From Escherichia phage vB_Ec-M-J: DNA of 64,000 bases. The stretch lies in the sequence record OQ718158.1; one strand, 5' to 3'. Below the pieces are notes generated by a model. It saw only the letters and a list, made by a program, of their open reading frames with translations, was not told the DNA's origin and ran no database searches. A program made the translations under genes and the position numbers. Positions 10,341 to 56,860 of the stretch are shown here, piece by piece; position 1 is the stretch's first letter; every line of letters begins with the position of its first letter.

Positions 10341-10911
10341 TGTACTTGGTGTAGTTATTGCAGGTATGCTTGCATACAATTACAATCGTAGTGTTATCGG
10401 CTATGTACTACTTAGTCTAGTACTAACCCCAGTACTCACCATCGTTACTTTATTAGTGCTAGGTGAACGTAATATCAACTTCATGATTAATGATAAACGT
10501 GATCAGGTTACACCAGAACCTGAAAAAGTTATTCCTGAAGAACAAGAAGAACTTAAAGTTGAAGTTCAAATGCAAGTGAATGTTCACAATGCACTTGATG
10601 AAACTGATCCAAAAGTTAATGTTACTGTTGTTCCTGTCGTCAATGAAGTAAAGCCTAAAGCAGCACCGAAAAGTACTAAAGCACCAAAGAGCACCAAGAC
10701 TACAAAGAAAGCTCGCTATACTAAAGGGAAGAATAAAAACAAAGTCCAAGATGAACCACAACAAGGTACACACGACCATACTTCCCATATTATTACAGCA
10801 GCCACCACCGCAGCAATCGTAACGCCATATATCTCTTCTGCTGATACTGGTTCATATGATAGCTCTAGCTGTGATTCAAGCTCTAGTTCAAGTTCCGGTA
10901 GCTGTGATTAA
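10315..10911 (+). CDS. membrane protein with Lys-rich linker and Ser/Cys-rich C-terminal tail
   Basis: Two N-terminal hydrophobic helices; C-terminus SSSCDSSSSSSSGSCD; AAAGGAG RBS. Confidence 0.6.
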   Translation: MLTIAAVISVLGVVIAGMLAYNYNRSVIGYVLLSLVLTPVLTIVTLLVLGERNINFMINDKRDQVTPEPEKVIPEEQEELKVEVQMQVNVHNALDETDPKVNVTVVPVVNEVKPKAAPKSTKAPKSTKTTKKARYTKGKNKNKVQDEPQQGTHDHTSHIITAATTAAIVTPYISSADTGSYDSSSCDSSSSSSSGSCD

Positions 10912-10913
10912 CA

Positions 10914-11246
10914 ATGAAACATCTTGCACAATATAATCAGTACTTGATTGCGTTGCATCAAATGAAAGATGATTTCTATAAAAGTGCAGAAACAGAACTC
11001 GTCGGTAAGATAGTAAAATTTACTGACGAGTACATCAACCGATATGCGGAAATGGACGATGATCCAGAGTATGAATCATACTACCAGTACATAAATCCCA
11101 ATACAAGAATGAGAATTATTGAAATTATGAAATACGGTATACGTTTAATTGCACAAGTAGAATACATCAATCACGATGCAATTGATGCCGCTGCCTTTGG
11201 TGATGAAATAAGTTTAGAATATCTTATTCAAGTTGATGAGGAATAA
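10914..11246 (+). CDS. hypothetical protein
   Basis: Track ORF. Confidence 0.5.
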   Translation: MKHLAQYNQYLIALHQMKDDFYKSAETELVGKIVKFTDEYINRYAEMDDDPEYESYYQYINPNTRMRIIEIMKYGIRLIAQVEYINHDAIDAAAFGDEISLEYLIQVDEE

Positions 11247-11248
11247 TA

Positions 11249-11464
11249 ATGACTACATTTTTTGCAATATATGGATTTGTTGCGTTTTGCTCATTTATAT
11301 GTAACTTTCTAGTACTGAATTGGAAATGTTTCAAAGATGAAATCATAACTGCAATGAGTCTACAATCAGCAGCACTAATGGCTATAATTTGGCCTGTAAC
11401 TATGGTGTATCTTTTTATCTCAATAACAAAAGATATCATATCCCACTTCAAGAGAAAGAAATAA
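11249..11464 (+). CDS. small membrane protein
   Basis: Hydrophobic ORF; GAGGA RBS. Confidence 0.45.
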   Translation: MTTFFAIYGFVAFCSFICNFLVLNWKCFKDEIITAMSLQSAALMAIIWPVTMVYLFISITKDIISHFKRKK

Positions 11465-11718
11465 TGTTCAACACCGACTATTCACATTTGCGATATCTTA
11501 TGTCTTTGGCTGATGATTTTATTAATGATTTGAAGCCGAAGTATATTGGACAAGAAGTACGTTTGATAAACTCAAGGGGTTATGGGAAGTACATTATCGC
11601 TGATATGTATATTAGCGGTGGTGAATGGCGTTTCAAAGTTAATACGTATCTTAAAGATGGTTCTTTTGCAGGTACACAAGTTACAAAACACACTAACATT
11701 ATATGGTTGGAACAATAA
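11464..11718 (+). CDS. hypothetical protein
   Basis: ATG at 11464 (MFNTDY) within track ORF 11389..11718. Confidence 0.5.
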   Translation: MFNTDYSHLRYLMSLADDFINDLKPKYIGQEVRLINSRGYGKYIIADMYISGGEWRFKVNTYLKDGSFAGTQVTKHTNIIWLEQ

Positions 11719-12461
11719 TGAAACATTTTTTGGAAGTTACAGTACCGGATGATAAAGATTTATATATCGTTGGTGATTTACACGGCAATGGAAAACTGTG
11801 GGATGCTACCAAGAAAGAATTTGGTATCACCAATAATGACTATGTTTTTTGTGTAGGTGATGTTATTGACCGTGGTGACCAGAATTCCAAACTACTATTT
11901 GAATTCCTTTTCGGTGAAAACCGTTTTATGATTGCTGGGAACCACGAGATCATGTGTGTTGATTCTGAAACTCACCGTGACTGGCATCACTGTTGGGTAC
12001 AAAATGGTGGAGATAAGTTCATTGATGAAGTTGGTGAGACAGGTATACAGTTCTTCCGTCAGTACTTAAAGGATCTCCCTATGATTATCCAAATCAATCA
12101 CCGAGGATTGAAGATTGGACTGGTTCATGCTGGTGTTCCTTTGGAATATACCACATGGGAACGTTTCGTTAGTGGGACAAAATCACTTAGTGCTGATATA
12201 ATTGAGAAGTGCTTGTGGGACCGTGATACATTCGACTACTGCAAGAAAAATAACACATATTACGTCCCTAGACTTGATGGCATCCATTGCGTCTTTAGTG
12301 GTCATACCGCAGTATCCGACCCACTCATCTACGGTAATCGTATCTGGATTGATAGTCAGTTTTTAACTGGTGATTTGACTCTTGCAACTCCCCAAAGTGG
12401 CGGGATGAGATACTTACGTAAAGAAAAAGATGAGTATTCATTTAACCGCTTCAAAAGGTAA
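11718..12461 (+). CDS. serine/threonine protein phosphatase (calcineurin-like metallophosphoesterase)
   Basis: Motifs GDLHG, GDVIDRGD, GNHE in canonical order. Confidence 0.75.
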   Translation: MKHFLEVTVPDDKDLYIVGDLHGNGKLWDATKKEFGITNNDYVFCVGDVIDRGDQNSKLLFEFLFGENRFMIAGNHEIMCVDSETHRDWHHCWVQNGGDKFIDEVGETGIQFFRQYLKDLPMIIQINHRGLKIGLVHAGVPLEYTTWERFVSGTKSLSADIIEKCLWDRDTFDYCKKNNTYYVPRLDGIHCVFSGHTAVSDPLIYGNRIWIDSQFLTGDLTLATPQSGGMRYLRKEKDEYSFNRFKR

Positions 12462-12465
12462 TAAT

Positions 12466-12735
12466 ATGCATGATGATATTAAAAAATCATTGTATGATTT
12501 ATATATTATGAAAAAAACCATCAATTCTATACTTGCCGACCAGATCAAACAGGTACGTAACTTCCTATCAAAAAAACTTATTGGTGCAGAGGTTAAATTC
12601 TATTACAAAAAAAATGTCGTGGTTGATGGTGTTATTAGAAGAGTAGTTACAATTTCAGACCAAACAATATATGTTGAAGTTGAATATGATGGTAAATTAT
12701 CACAATTAAGTACTGAAGATTTAACATTTTTATAA
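12466..12735 (+). CDS. hypothetical protein
   Basis: ATG at 12466 within track ORF 12430..12735. Confidence 0.5.
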   Translation: MHDDIKKSLYDLYIMKKTINSILADQIKQVRNFLSKKLIGAEVKFYYKKNVVVDGVIRRVVTISDQTIYVEVEYDGKLSQLSTEDLTFL

Positions 12736-28557: not shown

Positions 28558-28563
28558 GTTCAT

Positions 28564-28743
28564 ATGAAAATTTTACTTGTACTAATCGCCGTTCTTATGG
28601 TATTATCTTGTTCAGTTAGTAATGGTTCATACATTTACGTATCAGTATTTGAAGAAGCACCAACGAACTGTGTATTAACTCACACTGGTATTGTGTTAGT
28701 TAATGGTAAACCATCAATCGAGTACTTATGTATAGGTGATTAA
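28564..28743 (+). CDS. small lipoprotein (59 aa)
   Basis: Own translation MKILLVLIAVLMVLSCS...; lipobox LSC; below track cutoff. Confidence 0.4.
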   Translation: MKILLVLIAVLMVLSCSVSNGSYIYVSVFEEAPTNCVLTHTGIVLVNGKPSIEYLCIGD

Positions 28744-28746
28744 ATT

Positions 28747-28980
28747 ATGAAATTTATTTCTATTGCAATTGTTTCAGCACTCATGATGTTAGTAACAGGC
28801 TGTGCATCTAAAGTTCAGGAGGCTGATGCAGAGTTCATTCGCCAGAATTTGACTAAACTTAACTACGATGGCACATTGTATGCTTGCCATGAGATGCGTC
28901 ATGGGCAAGATCTTAATCTCATGTGCAGGAAGATTGTGAATCGCAAACGTCTTAATACTGTTCCGAAGGATGCACAATGA
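28747..28980 (+). CDS. small lipoprotein
   Basis: Signal peptide with lipobox VTGC. Confidence 0.5.
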   Translation: MKFISIAIVSALMMLVTGCASKVQEADAEFIRQNLTKLNYDGTLYACHEMRHGQDLNLMCRKIVNRKRLNTVPKDAQ

Positions 28981-34008: not shown

Positions 34009-34335
34009 ATGGATTTAAAGCCAATTGTGGTTAACAAATATAAAGAACCGTATGATGTGTATATCGGGCGTGGGTCTAAATGGGGAAACCCATTTACCCA
34101 TATCAGTGATAAACAGACCAAAGCCGAGTTCATTGTTGCTACAAGGGAAGAATCAATCGAAAAGTTCAGAGAATACATTATTGAGCGTATTTCTAATGGA
34201 GAAGTTAAGATTGATGATTTACTTGAGTTAGCAGGGAAACGTCTTGGCTGTTTCTGTAAACCGAAATCATGTCATGGTGATGTTCTCGTTGAGATAGTGA
34301 GTGCAATATTAGATGAATTACCAGACGATAATTAA
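34009..34335 (+). CDS. DUF4326-like protein (YIGRG...WGNPF family)
   Basis: VYIGRGSKWGNPF signature recalled from the DUF4326 family; function unknown. Confidence 0.5.
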   Translation: MDLKPIVVNKYKEPYDVYIGRGSKWGNPFTHISDKQTKAEFIVATREESIEKFREYIIERISNGEVKIDDLLELAGKRLGCFCKPKSCHGDVLVEIVSAILDELPDDN

Positions 34336-34783
34336 AGACGACCTTATTAATGGGGAGGGAGTAAGATGCTCCCTTTTTGTTAGTGGGTGCAGTCATGGAT
34401 GTGACGGATGCTTCAACGAAGAGGCATGGGATTATAGAAGTGGGCAAGAGTTCAGTACTGATACAATTGATACAATTTTAGCTGAACTCAGCAAACCGTA
34501 CATTAGTGGGTTATCACTCCTTGGTGGAGATCCTCTAATGAAAAAGAACATCGAAACAATTTTAGAGCTATGTAAAATTGTAAAAGAGACTTATCCCAAT
34601 AAAACTATTTGGTGCTGGAGTGGATATACTTTAGAAGAGATTATGGATAATCATGCTAAAGACATTCTTCAGTACTTAGATGTATTAGTTGATGGTAAAT
34701 TTGTTTCAGAAGAAAAGAATTTAACATTACCATTTCGTGGTTCAAATAACCAACGTATACTTTATAAAAATAAAAATTTTTAA
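34313..34783 (+). CDS. nrdG: anaerobic ribonucleotide reductase activating protein NrdG (radical SAM)
   Basis: CxxxCxxC cluster GCSHGCDGC; recalled similarity to E. coli/T4 NrdG (RCSLFVSGC, LVDGKF, RGSNNQ). Confidence 0.85.
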   Translation: MNYQTIIKDDLINGEGVRCSLFVSGCSHGCDGCFNEEAWDYRSGQEFSTDTIDTILAELSKPYISGLSLLGGDPLMKKNIETILELCKIVKETYPNKTIWCWSGYTLEEIMDNHAKDILQYLDVLVDGKFVSEEKNLTLPFRGSNNQRILYKNKNF

Positions 34784-34818
34784 CAAAAAAGCACCCAAAT
34801 GGGTGCTTTGTCTATTTT
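34784..34818. terminator. bidirectional rho-independent terminator between convergent genes
   Basis: AAAAAA-GCACCC-AAAT-GGGTGC-TTTGTCTATTTT, between nrdG (+) and the RCC1-like gene (-). Confidence 0.7.
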
Positions 34819-35984
34819 GGTGTTTGTAACGTTACAAACGAACCAGTTAATGTATCAGAAGTTGGGTTTATACCAGTATACATAACACCATTACTTATTA
34901 CTATTGCAGTAAGGTTGTAAGACATTGAAATGAAATCATCAGAATCAGTTAGTGAATTTGGAATTAAACTAAATGTAAGTGTTGGATTTGGATTGGAACC
35001 CAAACGAGTTGTATAGTTTCCACCAGTTCCATATAAACCATCTGATTTTTTTATACCTATACCAAAATATCCTTCTGAATATACTGGATACAATTTATAA
35101 TCAGTTCCCATATCAAATGCAATCAAAGTTGGGTTTACAACGTTTCCTGATGCAGAAACACCATTACCCAAGTTACCAGCTATTCGGTTACCACATACCC
35201 ACATTTCATCAACCGATGTTGTAGTATTACGTAATACCATATATGTACCATAGTAAGAAACCATAATATCCGAAACGGTGTATGATGCTTTTGTATATTC
35301 TGTGAACGTTGTTAAGGCAGTTGTGTTACCCGTTCCAAGCTGCCCATTATTATTGATACCACATCGAAAAAGTGTATTATTATTTTTTAATATCCAAGTT
35401 CCATTATCAGCAGCTATACATATTTTTTTAACATCAGTACTAATTAATGTGAATTTAGTTACTGCTGATGTGTTTCCAGTTCCTAATGTACCATTAGCAT
35501 TTCTACCCATTCCGTAAGCTGAACCATCATTGAAATGTATAATTATATTATCCACCCAAACATGTATATCTTTTATATTATTGAGTTGTTCTTCTGTAAA
35601 TACACTAGAAAAGTAACTAGTTCTATCTACATAAACATTCGAGAATGATGACACACCCCCAAATGCATAAGTCGTGGTTGAGCATGATAAAAATTCATCA
35701 GTTTTCGTTTGTAATAATATAAATCGTCCAAAGGAACACCAAGCGTTTTTAACATTACTTCGGATAAGGGTCCAGGTAGTACGGTTAGTGCTTACATCAC
35801 CATCACCAAAAATATAATTTGAACCAGCACCACTACCACCACCACCACCAATTCCCCATAACTCACCATTATCATATAATATTATGATAGCAGAATAGTT
35901 GCTCGTTGTTGGTGTTAGTATTTTAGATATATTTGGTGTTGGAGCACGATTTCCGTACTTCACCATTCTTGCAAATGGAAGCAT
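34812..35984 (-). CDS. RCC1-repeat (beta-propeller) Gly-rich protein
   Basis: The only substantial minus-strand gene; repeated G.N.GQLG.G-type motifs (NNNGQLGTGNT, NANGTLGTGNT, AGNLGNG); second ATG (MLPFARM) chosen for AAGGAG RBS. Confidence 0.65.
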   Translation of the reverse strand: MLPFARMVKYGNRAPTPNISKILTPTTSNYSAIIILYDNGELWGIGGGGGSGAGSNYIFGDGDVSTNRTTWTLIRSNVKNAWCSFGRFILLQTKTDEFLSCSTTTYAFGGVSSFSNVYVDRTSYFSSVFTEEQLNNIKDIHVWVDNIIIHFNDGSAYGMGRNANGTLGTGNTSAVTKFTLISTDVKKICIAADNGTWILKNNNTLFRCGINNNGQLGTGNTTALTTFTEYTKASYTVSDIMVSYYGTYMVLRNTTTSVDEMWVCGNRIAGNLGNGVSASGNVVNPTLIAFDMGTDYKLYPVYSEGYFGIGIKKSDGLYGTGGNYTTRLGSNPNPTLTFSLIPNSLTDSDDFISMSYNLTAIVISNGVMYTGINPTSDTLTGSFVTLQTPK

Positions 35985-36096
35985 TTTAAGTCTCCTTATC
36001 ATTATTATATAGTATATTTATGCAACTTTCCTTTAGTTCGCTTTTAGTAACCTCTAATAAATACAGTAACTAATATCTAAATTACAAGGGATATGT

Positions 36097-38793
36097 ATGT
36101 CAAAGAAAATATATGGTGGCTTAGACGTCACTCATAATGTGACAGTTAAAGGGAAAAGAACAGTACAGGGCATCAATGAACAAGTATTTGATGCTAATGG
36201 TAATATGGAAATTGATACATATTCCAAAGAAGAATTACTTGATGTAATTAGTTTACTTCCAATCTCGCATTATGGTACACATAACTATCTACCTGCTGGG
36301 GTATCTGGTGATTTTAATGGTGCATCAGAAAACCAATCCCAACGTAGAAACAAAATACTTTTAGAAAACGATGGCACATTAGTACTATTACGTAGTGGTA
36401 CAAACGGTAGTGTTGAAGGTTTATTTTATTCTTACCTAGCGAACGCATTATCCGTTACCGATATGAGCCGTACTGTTAATACAAGCCGTCAGTATAAGCC
36501 TGGCTATTTTGGGGCAAACCGTGTTGCTATTGGTTTATACAATACCGATTCAAAAATACTGTTAGGTCGTTACAATGACACATCTACCAATACTAATGGG
36601 TTGTTTATATCAGTAACGAATGGTACATTGGATGATACTCAACATAGTGGTCTTTTTGTGAACCAAGCTGATATTTCACCTGAAGGTGGGATTGAGTATG
36701 CTATGATGGCAGAAGACGGTTCAGTTTATGTATTCAACGTCCTTAATGAAAATAACAAACTACAGATTGTTGTTGTTCGTGTTGTATTGAATATTGCAAA
36801 CGGTACTTATACTGCTACCCGAATCACGGGGTGGACAACAAAAACTTTTTACAATACTACATATACTGCTCAGAATAATATGATCATTACTGACCATGTT
36901 AACTCAACTAATATTGCTGATAAGCCCTATGTCTATGTACCACAAAATTTGGCTGGTATGGGGATTTATATGACATCTATCGATTTATATGTTGCTCAGG
37001 AGCCAGGAACGCAGAACTTCCGATTCAGAATGAATGGTGACGCATGGTTCACTATGGCAAACTACAATACCCGACCACAGCATAGTTATAGTTTCAATTT
37101 TAACATGAGTACTAAACAATGTAACTTGGATAATGGGAACGATATTGGTACATTTGCTGCACCATTTGTTGTTACAAACACAGGTTCGGCATTGGTTGCT
37201 ACTGGTAATGTTCTCAACAACGATCCGTTATATGACCATAGCGGTGCAAGAAACATTTACAGTTCATATTATTATTTGAATACAGGTGAAGTATTCTGTA
37301 CTGCATGTCCAAACTTAGCAGAACCATTACTTATGCAGAAAGCTAAATTTACTGCACAATCAATATATAGCATGATTAATGTACGTGCGAACATTTCAAC
37401 TGATTTCAGAAATGGCATAGTTCGTCCTTCATTTGGTTCAGCAGTTGGTTCTTTTATTAACGGCGTAGAATTGCTTCCAGGGAACAGTACTAAACAGTAT
37501 TCTCGTTCAACTGGTTCTGGTGCATTCCGTCCATCTTATGCAGTTCATAAAAGTACTCCTAACTTTACGTTTAATTCTTTATCACGTGGAACCATACAAG
37601 GTTATGAGCCAACAACAGAACGTGCTAATGTGACAGATAACACGAACAACAGAGTTTTTATTAGTTCCATTAGTGGTAATAATGTTACTACAAATGGTGG
37701 GATATTCATGGTAGGTCAGAGATATTCCCAATCACTATCATATGATAAAAATATGAACGGAACTGGTATCATTAGTGTTACTCAATCTGTACTTGATAAT
37801 TTCAGAAATGCTGAATACGCCAAAGTACTAAGCGACTGGAACTTATCTTCTGCTGCTTATAAAGATATGACATTGTTTGTTCCACAACAAACTGATATAC
37901 CTGCATTCGTAATGCTAAGTACAGTTACAAATACATATCAGAACTATATTAGAATTGCTGAAGTGAATGTGAATACACGTTCAGGTAATATCACTACAAT
38001 TACCTTCAAGCGTTTAGTACTAGAAAACGTTTACGGAAGTAACTTTACACCAAATGGTAATGGTAGTTTTGCATTGTCTTCTGTTGGTTTAACAATATAT
38101 GATGGTGGTTCTTTCTACTTCATAGGTGGTTCTGACCCATTATCTCACCCAACTATTGGTAATACAAACACACACCAATTCAGAGCATATGTAACAAAAG
38201 CAACTGCACAATTTGATAGTTTTATTATCAGTGGTTCACATGCAAGTTATGAGCAAGGTATTCAACCAGCAGCTTTACCTGGTATTGGTTTTGGTTATTT
38301 CCAAGCAATAGACTATGTAAACAAAATGACTTTCCAAAAATGTGGTACTACAATTGCTGATTATAATAACTGGACTGCTCAAGGTGCACCGATTAACGTA
38401 GTTTCACAAGACGTTGCTCAAGGTTTTATTGTGTACTTCACAGAAGAAACTCCAGTAATTCTTTCTGGTAAAGCATTTACATTACCGATTACTAGTATAA
38501 ACTTAACTACAGTTAAGGCTAATCCAGCAAACACATTATTTCATGTATATGTTAAAATGGAACAAGGTAATGCAAAATATGTAATAACAACTGATGTTAT
38601 TTCAGAGACTGGTACTACAGCATATAATATTTTCTGGATAGGTACTATACAAACAAACTCACTACAAATATCAAATGTTAACATACAAAAACGTTCAAGA
38701 TTGGATATTTTCGGTGCGTCACTTGAAGCTGCTGGTTCTTCATTCCCAGTTAGTTATGGTCTACCGTCACAAACAGGAACAATCAATTGGTAA
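36097..38793 (+). CDS. tail-fiber-like / putative receptor-binding protein, paralog A (898 aa)
   Basis: Asn/Thr/Ser/Gly-rich; shares N-terminal LPIS.YG and C-terminal ~130-aa module (VVSQDVAQGF...FPVS.G.P.QTGT..W) with 38806 and 39410. Confidence 0.65.
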   Translation: MSKKIYGGLDVTHNVTVKGKRTVQGINEQVFDANGNMEIDTYSKEELLDVISLLPISHYGTHNYLPAGVSGDFNGASENQSQRRNKILLENDGTLVLLRSGTNGSVEGLFYSYLANALSVTDMSRTVNTSRQYKPGYFGANRVAIGLYNTDSKILLGRYNDTSTNTNGLFISVTNGTLDDTQHSGLFVNQADISPEGGIEYAMMAEDGSVYVFNVLNENNKLQIVVVRVVLNIANGTYTATRITGWTTKTFYNTTYTAQNNMIITDHVNSTNIADKPYVYVPQNLAGMGIYMTSIDLYVAQEPGTQNFRFRMNGDAWFTMANYNTRPQHSYSFNFNMSTKQCNLDNGNDIGTFAAPFVVTNTGSALVATGNVLNNDPLYDHSGARNIYSSYYYLNTGEVFCTACPNLAEPLLMQKAKFTAQSIYSMINVRANISTDFRNGIVRPSFGSAVGSFINGVELLPGNSTKQYSRSTGSGAFRPSYAVHKSTPNFTFNSLSRGTIQGYEPTTERANVTDNTNNRVFISSISGNNVTTNGGIFMVGQRYSQSLSYDKNMNGTGIISVTQSVLDNFRNAEYAKVLSDWNLSSAAYKDMTLFVPQQTDIPAFVMLSTVTNTYQNYIRIAEVNVNTRSGNITTITFKRLVLENVYGSNFTPNGNGSFALSSVGLTIYDGGSFYFIGGSDPLSHPTIGNTNTHQFRAYVTKATAQFDSFIISGSHASYEQGIQPAALPGIGFGYFQAIDYVNKMTFQKCGTTIADYNNWTAQGAPINVVSQDVAQGFIVYFTEETPVILSGKAFTLPITSINLTTVKANPANTLFHVYVKMEQGNAKYVITTDVISETGTTAYNIFWIGTIQTNSLQISNVNIQKRSRLDIFGASLEAAGSSFPVSYGLPSQTGTINW

Positions 38794-38805: not shown

Positions 38806-39393
38806 ATGGCATATATTATAAGATCCGATATCGAAGCTATGTCACAAATCGTAGTCCAGAATAAAAACACTGGACTATCTATTAGTGATATTAATGACGT
38901 ATCGTATCGAACAGACGCAAATGGGGAATGTACATTCCCCCTCTTAACAAAAGATGAAGTTGATTCTATTGTTAACGGTTTACCATTATCACAATATGGT
39001 GAACTTTATGATGTATCTAGTTTGTCAATTACATCAAGCGGTTATTCATTACGTTTTAACCGAGAGATACCTGCATTCATCGGTGGCTATCTTTATAATT
39101 ACCCTGTTGTTGCAGTGACAGCACCAACAGTGGCATCAGGAACACAAACACAATATGTATACGCTACTTTAGTACTGGGTGAGCCAATTTATAGAATCTC
39201 AACTTCACAATTACAAGAATCACAGATTATAATGTTCATCGGGACTATTACCGTTGGAACTTCTGGTATTACTGCTATCAACATTGAACGCGTATCACGA
39301 TTCAATACATACAGACCAAGTACAACACAAAAAGGTTCATCTTTCCCAGTCAGTACTGGAAATCCAACACAAACTGGTACATTAGGCTGGTAA
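38806..39393 (+). CDS. tail-fiber-family mini-paralog (195 aa; N- and C-terminal modules only)
   Basis: N-terminus LPLSQYG and C-terminus RFNTYRPSTTQKGSSFPVSTGNPTQTGTLGW match the flanking large paralogs. Confidence 0.6.
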   Translation: MAYIIRSDIEAMSQIVVQNKNTGLSISDINDVSYRTDANGECTFPLLTKDEVDSIVNGLPLSQYGELYDVSSLSITSSGYSLRFNREIPAFIGGYLYNYPVVAVTAPTVASGTQTQYVYATLVLGEPIYRISTSQLQESQIIMFIGTITVGTSGITAINIERVSRFNTYRPSTTQKGSSFPVSTGNPTQTGTLGW

Positions 39394-39409: not shown

Positions 39410-42139
39410 ATGTCATCCAAACGCATCATTGGTAGTGCTGCTATACTTGGAAATTTAGCAATTGGTGGAAAGTACGCTATGCGTACTTTTAATGGTACAG
39501 CACCAGACGCAAATACAGGTATTGTTGACTATCCAATTTATAAAAGATCAGAAGTTCAAAAAATACTTGATATGTTACCAATCTCCCGTATAGGGGAAAT
39601 GGATTATCTACCATTAAACGTTAATGGTTCATACGAAGGGGCAACGTCGCTTTCAGATGTATACCGTATGCAACCAACAATAGTCGAAGATGATGGTACT
39701 GGTGTGGTATTACGTGCTGGTACAAATGGTAGTACTGAAGGATATTACTATGCATTCATTCGTGATTTGCGTAATATTGATGCACTAACACAAAGTAGTG
39801 TTATCAGTACTACATCAAAATATCATCCTAGAATTCTTCCAAGTACTGAAAATGTTAAACAGTTTATCGGAACGAATGGTTATGAATTACTAGTTAGCCT
39901 ATCTAGTGCAAGTAATTATATTTTCACTTTAACAAATGGTACATTTAACGAAGTTGCACATATTCACGCTTCTATCGCTGCTACATCATTTGGTACAGAT
40001 AAACCATTGTATGCACATATCGTTAATGATAAAGTATTTGTGTGGTGCAAAGACACTACTATAGCAAACTATGGTTTGGCTTTAACATTATATACTGTTA
40101 ATACAAGTAGTATTAAAGATGGTACTATGAGTACTTTTGCTAAGGTTACTGGTTTTTCTGGTCAAACCTTAAGAAGTGTTAACTACACAAGTGCTAATAA
40201 TTTGAAAATTTATGAAAGATTATATTCAGTTGGAACTAGTAGTGATTCATTATTTGAATGCACTTCACCAGTTACACGAGTTGAATATTCAGATTATACA
40301 GATTATAATATACAAGCAAACGTAAGTCCAGATTTATCAAAGATTAGAATTACATTATTTCCAACTAACCGTTTAGTATCAAATCTATATATTAGTACTG
40401 TTTATGCTAGTGGTTTTAGTTTTGTTTATACTATCAACTCTAAATCATTATCAATTGATGGAAGTAGTAGAGCACCAATAGCAGCGGAATATAATGATGT
40501 TGATGGATTCACATTAACAAACCCATTTGCCATTGAGATGAACAACTTCATGGGTACACAGTTAGGTGTTCCGCAATTAGGTAACGTTGGTTCTATATGC
40601 CAAACCTATGACGGTTTAGTATTCAGTACTCGTGCTCGTTGGAGTTCTTCTGAAACCTATGGTATTCAGGTTTATAACGTAACAGGAACACCATATGATA
40701 GTTGGGTTGCCAGTACTCGCAAAGCGAACAATTCTAAATTTGTAAACGTTGCCCCAACATATGGTAGTGCAGTAGGTGAAAACCTTTTAGGAACACGTTT
40801 TATTGATAAACGTAAAGTACTGTTAGCATGTTCTGGAACATATGAAGATGAGTCATATGGTTATAACAATACAGTATTTTCTGAAATTGGCACTGATCCA
40901 ACCTTCCAGTTCAATTCAGTACAAAACAATACAACACTTAATGGTTTTGCACCACAAGCCAACCGAACTCGCCTCGGCGACAACTACAAATATACAGGTA
41001 TGATTTCATTAATTGATACTGACGGTTCAGTTAAATGTTATGGGACATCATTCATTGAAGGTGTATACAAAACAAGTGGTGGTTTGTTTAACCCAGATAC
41101 TTTAGAATTTGATGGTTCTTATACAATTGGTGATAATGTTCTGGAAACATTAAAACAAGAAATACTTGCTAATATTGGAATAGTAGGAGCATTTACTGGT
41201 AAAATTGCTTTATATTATGTACCAGATAGTTCTTTCTCAAAATCTATTGCGGTGGTTTCTGCATATAACTTAGGAAATAACCAAGGTTATGCAATATATT
41301 CTGAAGTTGATGTCACTGTTTCAGGAACCAATATTAGTTCTGCGTCTATGGTGAGTTCTAGATACGAAACACTTAATTCTGTAACAGGTATTGTAACCGA
41401 AGCCTATATGAAACGCTGTACTGGTCTAACTGTTGCTAAGTATTCTGGTTTTGGTTATATTGGTGTTGATGCAGTTCATCAGTTTTCACAACCTGGTAAT
41501 GCTCAATTCAAATTGATGATTGCTAAAACAGTGAATGGTTTGATTACATCTAACCGATTTATGTCATCCAGCTACATAGATAATGGCAATGCATTCCAGC
41601 ACGGAGTTATACCAGGTGTTGGATTTGGATACTATCATCTTCAAGATTCAGATTATCAAACTAAAGCAGTGTTTAGTCTCTTTGGGACAACATCAGCACA
41701 GATGGATGGGTTGATTGATGGTTCAGGAACTGTACAAGATAAAATCGTAGTAGTTTCACAAGATGTTGCTGAAGGTTTCACTGTGTACTTCACCCGTGAA
41801 GTTCCGGTATTCCTTGGTGGTATGTTTGATAGATTAGCGATTCAAACCATAGAATTAAGTACTATTAAAACTAACCCAGCTAACAGTACTTTTTATCTTT
41901 ACATTCAAATGAACCGTAACACAAGAAAAGCGGCATACGTTATCAGTACAACTCTTCTTGATGAGACATTGACAAACGTATATGTTGGTGATATTGTTAC
42001 TGGAAGTACGAGTATTACGTCAATTGATACTGAAAAGGTAACCCGATTCTTGACATACAGACCTAGTACGACCAAGCGTGGTTCTGCTATCCCAGCAAGT
42101 ACTGGTGTTCCTTCAAGCTCTGGTACACGTTGGCATTAA
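39410..42139 (+). CDS. tail-fiber-like / putative receptor-binding protein, paralog B (909 aa)
   Basis: Collinear similarity to 36097 (GTNGS.EG..Y, VVSQDVAEGFTVYFT, C-terminal RPSTTKRGSAIPASTGVPSSSGTRWH). Confidence 0.65.
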   Translation: MSSKRIIGSAAILGNLAIGGKYAMRTFNGTAPDANTGIVDYPIYKRSEVQKILDMLPISRIGEMDYLPLNVNGSYEGATSLSDVYRMQPTIVEDDGTGVVLRAGTNGSTEGYYYAFIRDLRNIDALTQSSVISTTSKYHPRILPSTENVKQFIGTNGYELLVSLSSASNYIFTLTNGTFNEVAHIHASIAATSFGTDKPLYAHIVNDKVFVWCKDTTIANYGLALTLYTVNTSSIKDGTMSTFAKVTGFSGQTLRSVNYTSANNLKIYERLYSVGTSSDSLFECTSPVTRVEYSDYTDYNIQANVSPDLSKIRITLFPTNRLVSNLYISTVYASGFSFVYTINSKSLSIDGSSRAPIAAEYNDVDGFTLTNPFAIEMNNFMGTQLGVPQLGNVGSICQTYDGLVFSTRARWSSSETYGIQVYNVTGTPYDSWVASTRKANNSKFVNVAPTYGSAVGENLLGTRFIDKRKVLLACSGTYEDESYGYNNTVFSEIGTDPTFQFNSVQNNTTLNGFAPQANRTRLGDNYKYTGMISLIDTDGSVKCYGTSFIEGVYKTSGGLFNPDTLEFDGSYTIGDNVLETLKQEILANIGIVGAFTGKIALYYVPDSSFSKSIAVVSAYNLGNNQGYAIYSEVDVTVSGTNISSASMVSSRYETLNSVTGIVTEAYMKRCTGLTVAKYSGFGYIGVDAVHQFSQPGNAQFKLMIAKTVNGLITSNRFMSSSYIDNGNAFQHGVIPGVGFGYYHLQDSDYQTKAVFSLFGTTSAQMDGLIDGSGTVQDKIVVVSQDVAEGFTVYFTREVPVFLGGMFDRLAIQTIELSTIKTNPANSTFYLYIQMNRNTRKAAYVISTTLLDETLTNVYVGDIVTGSTSITSIDTEKVTRFLTYRPSTTKRGSAIPASTGVPSSSGTRWH

Positions 42140-56824: not shown

Positions 56825-56842
56825 AATGTATAATTACTTTTT
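56757..56842. repeat. perfect tandem duplication, 2 x 43 bp
   Basis: aagacctttttatattgtacaataaaatgtataattacttttt at 56757-56799 and again at 56800-56842. Confidence 0.9.
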
Positions 56843-56860
56843 TATAACAGAGGAATTGTA

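What the first reader, a model, noticed from the sequence alone, without database searches (positions are those of the whole stretch)
34812..35984. Lone antisense gene encoding an RCC1-repeat beta-propeller protein
This is the only substantial minus-strand gene, lying between a bidirectional terminator and the fiber block. The product is Gly/Asn/Thr-rich with repeated G.N..GQLG.G-like motifs typical of RCC1 propellers, which are uncommon in phages. The opposite orientation implies separate regulation, possibly a lysogenic-conversion-like or host-interaction factor.
Basis: partly seen in the sequence, partly recalled or inferred. Interest (0 to 1): 0.55.

Follow-up and report, generated by a model that had tools for sequence, protein, structure and literature searches.

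The report
Extra RCC1 propeller gene, jumbo phage
The antisense gene is real and encodes a seven-bladed RCC1-type propeller, but it is an extra, displaced copy of a gene family already present in 11-14 copies in this group of giant E. coli phages, so it is a new member of a known (functionally unsolved) kind rather than an oddity.

Summary
Observation confirmed. Window 34812-35984 (-) is a 390-aa, 42-kDa gene under purifying selection. Its model is a confident 7-bladed RCC1-like propeller (pLDDT 89; TM 0.78 to UVR8).

The window is an Asteriusvirus (PBECO4/121Q, "Rak2-like") virulent jumbo coliphage. These phages carry tandem arrays of 11-14 RCC1-like genes. Each array gene has a hairpin terminator, a T4-like late-promoter motif (ATAAATA/TAAATAT), a Shine-Dalgarno site and a conserved N-terminal leader, M-[LI]-P-F-x-R-[MI]-x-x-Y-G-N.

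The window gene has this leader and promoter motif but lies outside any array. It sits on a 1,240-bp insertion placed between the nrdG terminator hairpin and the late promoter of a virion-protein gene. None of the 39 related GenBank phage records holds the insert. It occupies the same site in two contigs read; its orthologue cluster has 13 members.

Family members were detected in virions of GAP32, phAPEC6 and JP4. In phage Munch the same leader also heads lectin-like, Gly-rich and "virion structural" proteins.

Best reading: a late-expressed, virion-associated ligand-binding module gained as a moron-like cassette. There is no support for lysogenic conversion or for chromosome condensation. 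New member of a known kind; moderate-low interest. The leader peptide is the most useful lead.

The parts
34812..35984 (-). CDS of the RCC1-like seven-bladed beta-propeller protein (390 aa, 42.1 kDa; stop codon at 34812-34814)
   Evidence: ORF. Pfam RCC1 above cutoff and phrog_4219 at 3e-65. AF2 pLDDT 89, pTM 0.88. Foldseek match to UVR8/RPGR/RCC1/HERC2. dN/dS 0.225.
35949..35984 (-). Codons of the conserved N-terminal leader MLPFARMVKYGN
   Evidence: Leader found in 78 of 79 family members from five jumbo-phage lineages; P3 100 %, F4 96 %, Y10 90 %, N12 90 %. Low pLDDT (about 51) for residues 1-10, so it is modelled outside the propeller. Differences from the array copies here are synonymous and the peptide is kept.
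35992..35997 (-). Shine-Dalgarno AAGGAG, 7 nt before the ATG at 35984
   Evidence: Sequence read. The in-frame ATG at 36002 has no such site.
36015..36021 (-). ATAAATA, a T4-like late-promoter motif, starting 37 nt upstream of the ATG
   Evidence: Only 6 ATAAATA in the window against 38.5 +/- 6.2 expected. TAAATA lies about 36-64 nt upstream of 9 of 10 plus-strand gene starts in phAPEC6's structural region, including all operon leaders. The motif is published as the predicted late promoter of CBB/GAP32.
34788..34809 (.). Hairpin terminator shared by convergent nrdG and the RCC1 gene
   Evidence: Terminator-like on both strands. dG -14.7 kcal/mol. Conserved as the nrdG terminator in relatives without the insert.
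34817..36056 (.). 1,240-bp insertion relative to all GenBank relatives; it replaces 6-12 nt of spacer between the nrdG hairpin and the next gene's promoter
   Evidence: Alignments to EC.P1 and PBECO4 stop at 34816 and resume at 36057; the intergenic region is 76 bp in those phages. It is the only gain in 64 kb relative to EC.P1. No DNA match in the phage collection.
35835..35849 (-). (GGT)5 tract encoding a Gly run in the first-blade loop; its length varies among orthologues
   Evidence: Window has (GGT)5, L004 and L005 have (GGT)4, and P0022 has three Gly.
36057..36063 (+). ATAAATA late-promoter motif of the divergent 898-aa gene, 40 nt before its ATG; the right edge of the insertion abuts it
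   Evidence: the same motif is present in EC.P1 and PBECO4.
36097..38793 (+). Context: 898-aa virion-protein gene (orthologue of phAPEC6 gp323c)
   Evidence: phrog_3573 at 1.7e-263. gp323c detected in virions by MS.
34313..34783 (+). Context: nrdG (anaerobic ribonucleotide reductase activase), convergent with the RCC1 gene
   Evidence: Pfam Fer4_12 at 8.7e-54 and phrog_626.

Best explanation
The gene is an ectopic member of the leader-tagged RCC1-like cassette family of Rak2-like jumbo phages.

**Shown**
- It encodes a folded seven-bladed RCC1-type propeller preceded by the family's 12-residue leader (MLPFARMVKYGN).
- It lies on a 1,240-bp insertion that places promoter, ribosome-binding site and ORF exactly between the nrdG terminator hairpin and the late promoter of the next gene.
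- No related GenBank phage record has the insertion. The two orthologue-bearing contigs read have it at the same site.

**Inferred from sequence and from published data on relatives**
- It is transcribed late from its own ATAAATA promoter by the phage's gp55-like late sigma factor, divergently from the neighbouring virion gene.
- Transcription ends at the shared hairpin.
- The protein is incorporated into or attached to the virion, as family members are in GAP32, phAPEC6 and JP4.

**Inferred mechanism**
- The leader is the common handle that docks interchangeable binding modules onto the particle. These modules are RCC1 propellers and, in relatives, ConA-like lectin and Gly-rich domains.
- The variable propeller face binds a host-surface ligand.
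- Gaining this cassette would then add or alter an adsorption or host-range specificity.

In effect it is a moron-like gain of a late structural accessory gene in a virulent phage.
For: **Fold and family**
- Pfam RCC1 and phrog_4219 match. The AF2 model has pLDDT 89, with Foldseek TM 0.78 to UVR8 and 0.84 to PBECO4 RCC1.
- 10,553 relatives at E<=1e-3 in the representative library.

**Real gene**
- dN/dS is 0.225, and dS (0.07) is similar to that of flanking genes. GC skew is reversed over the gene.

**Insertion**
- define it. No orthologue exists in 50,697 phage records; the best match is 34 % identity.
- The orthologue sits at the same site in the two contigs read, L004 and L005; its 90 %-identity cluster has 13 members, some recorded on contigs of about 357 kb from E. 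coli assemblies.

**Cassette family**
- In phAPEC6 and EC.P1, most array genes are hairpin + TAAATAT + SD + ATGTTACCTTTTG....
- The leader is conserved in GAP32, Eneladusvirus, Munch and XaC1.

**Late promoter**
- ATAAATA and TAAATAY are 4-6-fold depleted in the window, and one of only two minus-strand TAAATAY sites lies 36 nt before this ATG.
- The motif precedes structural operons in phAPEC6, which encodes a late sigma factor, gp237c.
- The same motif is published for CBB and GAP32 (PMC5259590).

**Virion association of family members**
- GAP32 gp001.
- phAPEC6 gp549 and gp551, with 4-5 peptides each (PMC7247149).
- JP4_577 and JP4_581, with 1 peptide each. JP4_577's counterpart P0035 falls in the same subfamily as this gene.

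**Leader on other binding-type bodies**
- Munch_534 has a ConA-like Laminin_G_3 domain.
- Munch_544 has Gly_rich_2.
- Munch_540, pEa49_00586 and GAP32_002 belong to phrog_6011, 'virion structural protein'.

**Variability**
- The family is a hot spot of difference between near-identical phages fEgEco12 and Ecwhy_1.
Against: - No expression or proteomic data exist for this gene or this phage.
- The JP4 detections rest on single peptides.
- Only 2 of 11 phAPEC6 paralogues were seen in virions, so membership of the family does not guarantee incorporation.
- A profile of the array upstream regions does not find this gene's upstream region significantly (nhmmer E=50). The promoter call therefore rests on the short ATAAATA motif and its position.
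- No ligand, no binding partner for the leader and no location on the particle is known for any member.
- Relatives without the gene are viable, and their neighbouring virion gene is 99 % identical, so the product is dispensable.
Confidence: 0.5

Rival explanations
1. Packaged cargo. The leader would be a capsid-targeting signal, functionally like the T4 internal-protein targeting sequence. The propellers would be loaded into the head and ejected with the DNA to neutralise host defences. On this view the array is an arsenal of counter-defence effectors and this gene is one more of them.
For: - Family members are found in purified virions.
- A short, invariant N-terminal leader sits on very diverse bodies.
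- The family is hypervariable between close relatives and shows birth-and-death evolution, with split or truncated copies.
- Late expression fits head assembly.
Against: - No conserved Glu or other recognisable cleavage motif follows the leader, unlike the T4 L/I-x-E site.
- The other leader-bearing bodies are lectin-like or related to baseplate and large virion proteins, which points to the outside of the particle.
- RCC1-like domains in bacteria commonly sit in secreted or surface proteins carrying T9SS and Ig-like domains.
- A 42-kDa rigid propeller is a poor fit for passage through a tail tube. This last point is an inference.
Confidence: 0.15
2. Intracellular late protein that is not part of the virion. 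It could be an assembly scaffold, a protein-interaction hub or a decoy acting inside the infected cell. The virion detections of paralogues would then be carry-over.
For: - Beta-propellers are generic protein-interaction platforms (established knowledge).
- Most paralogues (9 of 11 in phAPEC6) were not detected in virions.
- The JP4 hits are single peptides.
Against: - Three independent proteomes detect family members.
- The shared leader also occurs on 'virion structural' proteins such as GAP32_002.
Confidence: 0.13
3. 'Regulator of chromosome condensation' or DNA-condensation protein. It would organise or condense phage DNA in the head, or act as a nucleotide-exchange factor like eukaryotic RCC1, as many GenBank annotations and the phAPEC6 paper suggest.
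For: - The annotation is transferred from eukaryotic RCC1.
- Virion presence would be compatible with an inner-body role.
Against: - The resemblance is to the fold only: 14-18 % identity to RCC1 and UVR8.
- Bacteria have no Ran (established knowledge).
- The protein is mildly acidic, pI 6.1, which is unlike DNA-condensing proteins.
- 11-14 highly divergent copies, plus lectin-type paralogues sharing the leader, argue against one conserved DNA-binding job.
Confidence: 0.05
4. Lysogenic-conversion-like moron expressed independently of the lytic programme.
For: - The gene has its own promoter and terminator and is inserted between genes that are adjacent in relatives.
Against: - Asteriusviruses are virulent, with no integrase or repressor reported.
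- The upstream motif belongs to the late class, and no sigma-70-type promoter was found upstream of the gene on its own strand.
Confidence: 0.02

Closest known systems
RCC1-like 'DNA condensation / regulator of chromosome condensation' paralogues of Rak2-like jumbo phages (GAP32 gp001; phAPEC6 gp549-551 and gp001-010; 121Q_234-248; PHROG 4219)
   Same: - Same size (about 360-400 aa) and a single seven-bladed RCC1-type propeller.
- Same N-terminal leader.
- Same late-promoter, SD and short-5'UTR layout.
- 25-40 % identity.
   Different: - It lies alone, about 1.2 kb between nrdG and a virion gene, not in the tandem array.
- It borrows the nrdG hairpin instead of the array's GCCAGTAC...GTACTGGC hairpin.
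- No copy closer than 40 % identity is known outside its own orthologue cluster.
Eukaryotic RCC1-like domains (RCC1, UVR8, RPGR, HERC1/2 RLDs)
   Same: - Seven-bladed propeller fold with GxxGQLG-type repeat signature.
- TM 0.65-0.78.
   Different: - 14-21 % identity.
- No Ran, histone or UV-B context.
- Carries an extra N-terminal leader and a poly-Gly loop.
- Function cannot be transferred.
Morons (Juhala et al. 2000 sense: an autonomous promoter-gene-terminator unit inserted between genes that are adjacent in relatives)
   Same: - A precise insertion between two genes that abut in all relatives, with its own promoter and a terminator.
   Different: - The host is a virulent phage, the promoter is of the late lytic class, and the terminator is pre-existing and shared.
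- The donor is a phage gene family, not a bacterial gene; the insert's G+C equals that of the phage.
T4 internal proteins (IPI-III) with their N-terminal capsid-targeting sequence in a hyperplastic locus
   Same: - A short conserved N-terminal leader on otherwise unrelated proteins.
- A variable multi-gene locus.
- Products present in virions.
   Different: - No protease cleavage motif after the leader.
- The bodies are large propellers and lectin-like domains rather than small basic proteins.
- An internal location has not been shown.

Membership tests
RCC1-like domain superfamily (Pfam PF00415 / clan beta-propeller, RLD) | Significant match to the RCC1 repeat profile | tested here: met
   PF00415 scores 40.7 bits against a cutoff of 21.7, E 3.6e-10.
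RCC1-like domain superfamily (Pfam PF00415 / clan beta-propeller, RLD) | Whole-domain RLD profile (PF25390) above its curated threshold | tested here: not met
   59.8 bits against a cutoff of 150, although E is 3.7e-16 over residues 36-295. It is a divergent member.
RCC1-like domain superfamily (Pfam PF00415 / clan beta-propeller, RLD) | Seven-bladed propeller fold superposable on solved RLDs | tested here: met
   AF2 pLDDT 89, pTM 0.88. Foldseek E 5e-21, TM 0.76-0.78 to UVR8; also RPGR, RCC1, HERC2.
RCC1-like domain superfamily (Pfam PF00415 / clan beta-propeller, RLD) | Guanine-nucleotide-exchange or chromatin-binding activity | not testable with these tools
   Biochemical property. There is no Ran in bacteria. 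14-18 % identity gives no basis for transfer.
Leader-tagged RCC1 cassette family of Rak2-like jumbo phages (PHROG 4219 and relatives) | N-terminal leader M-[LI]-P-F-x-R-[MI]-x-x-Y-G-N | tested here: met
   MLPFARMVKYGN at residues 1-12. The leader is present in 78 of 79 members examined.
Leader-tagged RCC1 cassette family of Rak2-like jumbo phages (PHROG 4219 and relatives) | Profile match to the phage family | tested here: met
   phrog_4219 E 3.1e-65 over residues 6-384. BFVD top hit is PBECO4 RCC1, TM 0.84.
Leader-tagged RCC1 cassette family of Rak2-like jumbo phages (PHROG 4219 and relatives) | Late-type TAAATA(T/C) motif about 30-40 nt before the ATG, followed by a strong SD | tested here: met
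   ATAAATAT starts 37 nt before the ATG (its TAAATAT core 36 nt) and AAGGAG ends 7 nt before it. However, a profile of the array upstream regions is not significant here.
Leader-tagged RCC1 cassette family of Rak2-like jumbo phages (PHROG 4219 and relatives) | Location in the tandem array with the array-type hairpin | tested here: not met
   Solitary copy between nrdG and the 898-aa gene. It uses the nrdG hairpin. No paralogue is present in the 64-kb window.
Leader-tagged RCC1 cassette family of Rak2-like jumbo phages (PHROG 4219 and relatives) | Presence of the product in virions | not testable with these tools
   Shown only for other members: GAP32 gp001, phAPEC6 gp549/551, JP4_577/581.
Moron | Inserted between genes adjacent in relatives, with its own promoter and a terminator | tested here: met
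   The 76-bp intergenic region in EC.P1 and PBECO4 is replaced by 1,313 bp here. A promoter motif and a hairpin are present.
Moron | Expression from a repressed prophage / benefit to a lysogen | tested here: not met
   The genus is virulent with no lysogeny genes reported, and the promoter motif is of the late lytic class.
T4-type capsid-targeted internal proteins | Conserved N-terminal targeting peptide removed at an L/I-x-E site by the prohead protease | tested here: inconclusive
   A conserved leader is present. No conserved Glu or cleavage-like motif lies within or after it. The protease specificity of these phages is unknown.

The most novel reading that the evidence does not exclude
The 12-residue leader (M-L/I-P-F-x-R-M/I-x-x-Y-G-N) is a portable virion-incorporation signal shared by all Rak2-like jumbo phages. 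The arrays are then libraries of swappable cargo or adhesin modules: RCC1 propellers, ConA-like lectins and Gly-rich domains. These modules would be either displayed on the 'hairy' particle or packaged and ejected as counter-defence effectors. The window would capture such a module in the act of spreading to a new genomic site. If so, any protein could be loaded onto or into these phages by adding the leader.
Probability: 0.3. Interest if true: 0.65.

Novelty: new member of a known kind. Interest (0 to 1): 0.35.

Why it matters
RCC1-like genes are the largest paralogous family in Rak2-like jumbo coliphages, several of which are being developed for therapy. Their role is unknown, and the usual annotation ('chromosome condensation') is almost certainly misleading.

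This locus offers a natural near-isogenic pair. Phages about 98 % identical differ by one complete cassette, so the contribution of a single propeller to adsorption, host range or defence evasion can be tested directly.

The conserved leader, shared with lectin-like and 'virion structural' proteins, gives a concrete and testable handle on how the family is recruited to the particle.

Tried and rejected
**Searches that found nothing**
- Donor search. blastn (distant mode) of the 1,240-bp insert against 50,697 phage records gave no match. megablast against complete E. coli genomes and plasmids gave none. An IMG/VR scan with the protein found no relative. The source of the cassette remains unknown.
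- No second paralogue and no other leader-bearing ORF exists in the window.
- A sigma-70 promoter scan found no hit upstream of the gene on its own strand.
- The 898-aa neighbour has no relative among solved structures.

**Tests that failed or were blocked**
- Promoter homology. An nhmmer profile of 19 array upstream regions did not recover this gene's upstream region (E=50, rank 10). I therefore do not claim sequence homology of the promoter region, only the shared ATAAATA motif and layout.

**Uninformative literature searches**
- Searches for RCC1 in phage tail fibres mostly hit strain or locus names such as RCC1108 and rcc1083.

**Readings considered and rejected**
- Spurious ORF: rejected on fold, selection and orthologues.
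- Host-derived gene: rejected because G+C is 0.34-0.35, equal to the phage, and the leader is phage-specific.
- Recent duplication of the resident array copy: rejected because the same-subfamily copy in EC.P1 is only 30 % identical.
- Required partner of the 898-aa protein: rejected because relatives keep a 99 % identical 898-aa gene without it.
Full report

Yes.
- A 396-codon ORF occupies 34812..36002 on the minus strand.
A perfect AAGGAG lies 7 nt upstream of it.
- Homologues from related phages almost all begin with the same residues, MLPF....
- The product is 390 aa, 42.1 kDa, pI 6.1. It is rich in Thr, Gly, Asn and Ser and carries GxNxxGxLGxG-type motifs.
- GC skew is reversed over the gene (-0.19 against about +0.1), as expected for a minus-strand gene in this genome.
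- Against two orthologous contigs, the gene has 18 synonymous and 14 non-synonymous differences. That gives dN/dS 0.225. Its dS (0.07) is like that of its neighbours, whose dN/dS is 0.04-0.12.
- It is therefore a real gene under purifying selection, somewhat more relaxed than the flanking genes.
- It is the only substantial minus-strand gene. The other minus ORFs of 100 aa or more overlap longer plus-strand ORFs. In the annotation of the closest GenBank relative, the homologous 64 kb holds a single 71-aa opposite-strand call.
- The hairpin at 34788-34809 scores as a terminator on both strands.

**2. What is the protein?**

- Pfam RCC1 (PF00415) is matched above its curated cutoff. The whole-domain RLD model PF25390 matches at E 3.7e-16 but below its cutoff.
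- PHROG 4219 ('regulator of chromosome condensation') matches at 3e-65.
- An exhaustive HMMER search finds 10,553 relatives at E<=1e-3, nearly all multi-repeat RCC1 proteins.
- An AlphaFold2 model built on 32 family sequences has pLDDT 89 and pTM 0.88. It consists of about 28 strands.
- Foldseek aligns the model over its full length with UVR8 (TM 0.76-0.78, E about 1e-20), RPGR, RCC1 and the HERC1/2 RLDs, at only 14-21 % identity.
- Among predicted viral structures the best match is the PBECO4 RCC1 protein (TM 0.84).
- The RCC1-propeller call is therefore correct at the level of fold. Nothing supports transferring the eukaryotic function.

**3. What is the genome, and is RCC1 unusual there?**

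- The window is about 98 % identical to Escherichia phages EC.P1, Turkey3, CMSTMSU, fEgEco12 and Ecwhy_1, and about 83 % identical to PBECO4, 121Q and phAPEC6.
- It is therefore an Asteriusvirus, one of the 'Rak2-like' virulent jumbo myoviruses of about 350 kb.
- RCC1-like genes are a hallmark of this group:
  - phAPEC6 has eleven (PMC7247149).
  - 121Q has thirteen (PMC5259590).
  - Munch has thirteen (PMC8273493).
  - EC.P1 has 13-14.
- They form one tandem array.
- 'Uncommon in phages' therefore does not apply here.

**4. The gene is an insertion.**

- No GenBank relative covers the whole 4-kb query. In the records listed, the two matching pieces flank a gap of about 1.24 kb.
- In EC.P1 and PBECO4, nrdG is followed by a 76-bp spacer and then the 898-aa gene.
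- Alignments to both stop at window 34816 and resume at 36057.
- The left edge lies just after the nrdG hairpin. The stop codon TAG is 2 nt from the stem.
- The right edge abuts the ATAAATA motif in front of the 898-aa gene.
- About 6-12 nt of spacer were replaced by 1,240 bp carrying exactly one promoter-to-stop unit.
- Over the whole 64 kb this is the only sequence the window has in excess of EC.P1. Three other indels are EC.P1-extra.
- The insert has no DNA match in the phage collection. The best phage protein match is 34 % identity.
- In the 5.8-billion-protein collection there is one orthologue cluster, with 13 members at 96-99 % identity.
  - Cluster members are recorded on contigs of about 357 kb from E. 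coli isolate assemblies.
  - Two contigs that could be read (L004, L005) are collinear with the window across both junctions. This points to one insertion event shared by a sublineage.
- More distant relatives all lack the insert and keep the same spacer, so gain is more parsimonious than repeated loss.
- G+C of the insert equals that of the phage. The nearest non-orthologues are other jumbo-phage paralogues at 30-40 % identity.
- The donor was therefore probably another phage of this group. It has not been found.

**5. The cassette architecture.**

- In phAPEC6 and EC.P1, most array genes are preceded by three elements:
  - the previous gene's hairpin (GCCAGTAC..GTACTGGC plus a T-run);
  - the sequence TTGATTAAATATAGTATAATGAATAAAGGAGG;
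  - the start ATGTTACCTTTTG(C/T)NAGAATG....
- The window gene has GTTGCATAAATATACTATATAATAATGATAAGGAGACTTAAA-ATGCTTCCATTTGCAAGAATGGTGAAGTAC.
- That is the same layout and the same peptide, but with synonymous differences (CTT/TTA, CCA/CCT, GTG/GTT). The leader is thus conserved at the protein level.
- A profile of the array upstream regions does not detect this locus significantly. I rely only on the short motif described in the next section.

**6. Timing of expression (inferred).**

- ATAAATA occurs 6 times in the window against 38.5 +/- 6.2 expected.
- TAAATAY occurs 14 times against 58.7 +/- 8.4 expected. Only two of these sites are on the minus strand, and one lies 36 nt before this gene's ATG.
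- A second ATAAATA lies 40 nt before the ATG of the divergent 898-aa gene.
- In a 50-kb structural region of phAPEC6:
  - TAAATA lies about 36-64 nt upstream of 9 of the 10 plus-strand gene starts examined, including all operon leaders (tail fibre gp256, baseplate wedge gp244, gp238, gp245, gp253 and others), and upstream of the MS-detected gp250c.
  - It does not lie upstream of the sigma-factor, Clp or thyA genes.
  - The phage encodes a 'sigma factor for late transcription', gp237c.
- The CBB paper independently derived ATAAATA as the predicted late promoter of CBB and GAP32, and likened it to T4's TATAAATA.
- The gene is therefore most likely a late gene, expressed with virion genes from a back-to-back divergent promoter pair. 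It is not a separately timed or lysogeny-type gene.
- These phages are reported as strictly lytic.

**7. What the family does (inferred).**

- Family members have been found in purified virions three times:
  - GAP32 gp001;
  - phAPEC6 gp549 and gp551;
  - JP4_577 and JP4_581, with single peptides.
- P0035, the counterpart of JP4_577, falls in the same subfamily as the window gene.
- The neighbouring 898-aa and 909-aa proteins also have virion-detected orthologues.
- The leader M-[LI]-P-F-x-R-[MI]-x-x-Y-G-N is present in 78 of 79 members from Asteriusvirus, Mimasvirus, Eneladusvirus, Munch and Xanthomonas phage XaC1. The one exception is the downstream half of a split gene.
- In the model the leader is low-confidence and lies outside the propeller.
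- In Munch, all 17 genes of the array carry the leader, including three that are not RCC1 proteins:
  - Munch_534 has a ConA-like lectin domain (Laminin_G_3) and matches parts of large virion and baseplate protein families.
  - Munch_544 has a Gly_rich_2 domain.
  - Munch_540 belongs to PHROG 6011, 'virion structural protein'. So do pEa49_00586 and GAP32_002, the neighbour of GAP32 gp001.
- The unifying feature of the locus is thus the leader, and the bodies are binding-type modules.
- Between the near-identical phages fEgEco12 and Ecwhy_1, two of the few strongly divergent proteins are RCC1-like.
- These phages have conspicuous 'hairy' appendages whose proteins are unassigned.
- Together this favours a virion-borne, exchangeable ligand-binding module docked through the leader.
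- A packaged, ejected effector (T4 internal-protein analogy) is the main rival. A purely intracellular role or a DNA-condensation role is less likely.

**8. Comparison and novelty.**

- The gene is a divergent member of a family already recognised in annotations and papers.
- What is new here:
  - its solitary position;
  - the presence/absence polymorphism among 98 %-identical phages;
  - the explicit definition of the leader and of the late-promoter cassette, which I did not find described in the papers read.
- It is a new member of a known kind.
- Interest is moderate-low for the gene itself and higher for the leader hypothesis.

Noticed in passing
window, whole; sites 21263, 26801, 36015, 36057, 63683, 63739: ATAAATA is about 6-fold depleted (6 against 38.5 expected) and TAAATAY about 4-fold depleted with strong strand bias (12 plus, 2 minus). 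This is the signature of an avoided late-promoter word, matching the motif published for CBB and GAP32.
   Followed up: partly
L021 (Salmonella phage Munch 330879-349772); L016:631-1296; L014:523-1155: The MIPF/MLPF leader heads non-RCC1 proteins too: a ConA-like lectin (Munch_534), a Gly_rich_2 protein (Munch_544), and the PHROG 6011 'virion structural protein' group (Munch_540, pEa49_00586, GAP32_002). The array is defined by the leader, not by the fold.
   Followed up: partly
window 36097-38793, 38806-39393, 39410-42139: The 898-aa and 909-aa proteins are full-length paralogues (26 % identity). The 195-aa protein between them is a copy of their C-terminal about 120 residues, ending in the shared ...GSSFPVS.G.P.QTGT..W. 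They have no Pfam domain and no relative among solved structures; their orthologues are virion proteins.
   Followed up: partly
window 35835-35849 (-): A (GGT)n microsatellite inside the RCC1 gene varies among orthologues (5, 4 or 3 repeats). This changes the length of a poly-Gly loop in the first blade.
   Followed up: partly
window 28558-28798; 49675; 56840-56858: EC.P1 carries extra DNA at three sites relative to the window (about 925, 636 and 511 bp). The first is about the size of EC.P1's 972-bp CDS, whose phAPEC6 counterpart gp336c is annotated as WGR-domain; that gene appears to be missing from the window phage.
   Followed up: no
L002 (phage TH47) 3410-4024 and 4351-5318: TH47 has about 0.6-kb and 1-kb insertions between nrdD, DUF4326 and nrdG that the window lacks. 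They could be mobile elements such as homing endonuclease genes in the nrd operon.
   Followed up: no
L008 (EC.P1) 11535-12714; L007 (phAPEC6) 10640-11449: Arrays contain decayed copies: a split gene (59-aa leader fragment plus a 343-aa remainder) and a truncated 269-aa copy. This indicates birth-and-death turnover of the family.
   Followed up: no
window 34009-34335: A DUF4326 gene is wedged between nrdD and nrdG and overlaps the nrdG start by 23 nt. It is conserved in all relatives and was identical in three of the four comparisons (dS = 0).
   Followed up: no
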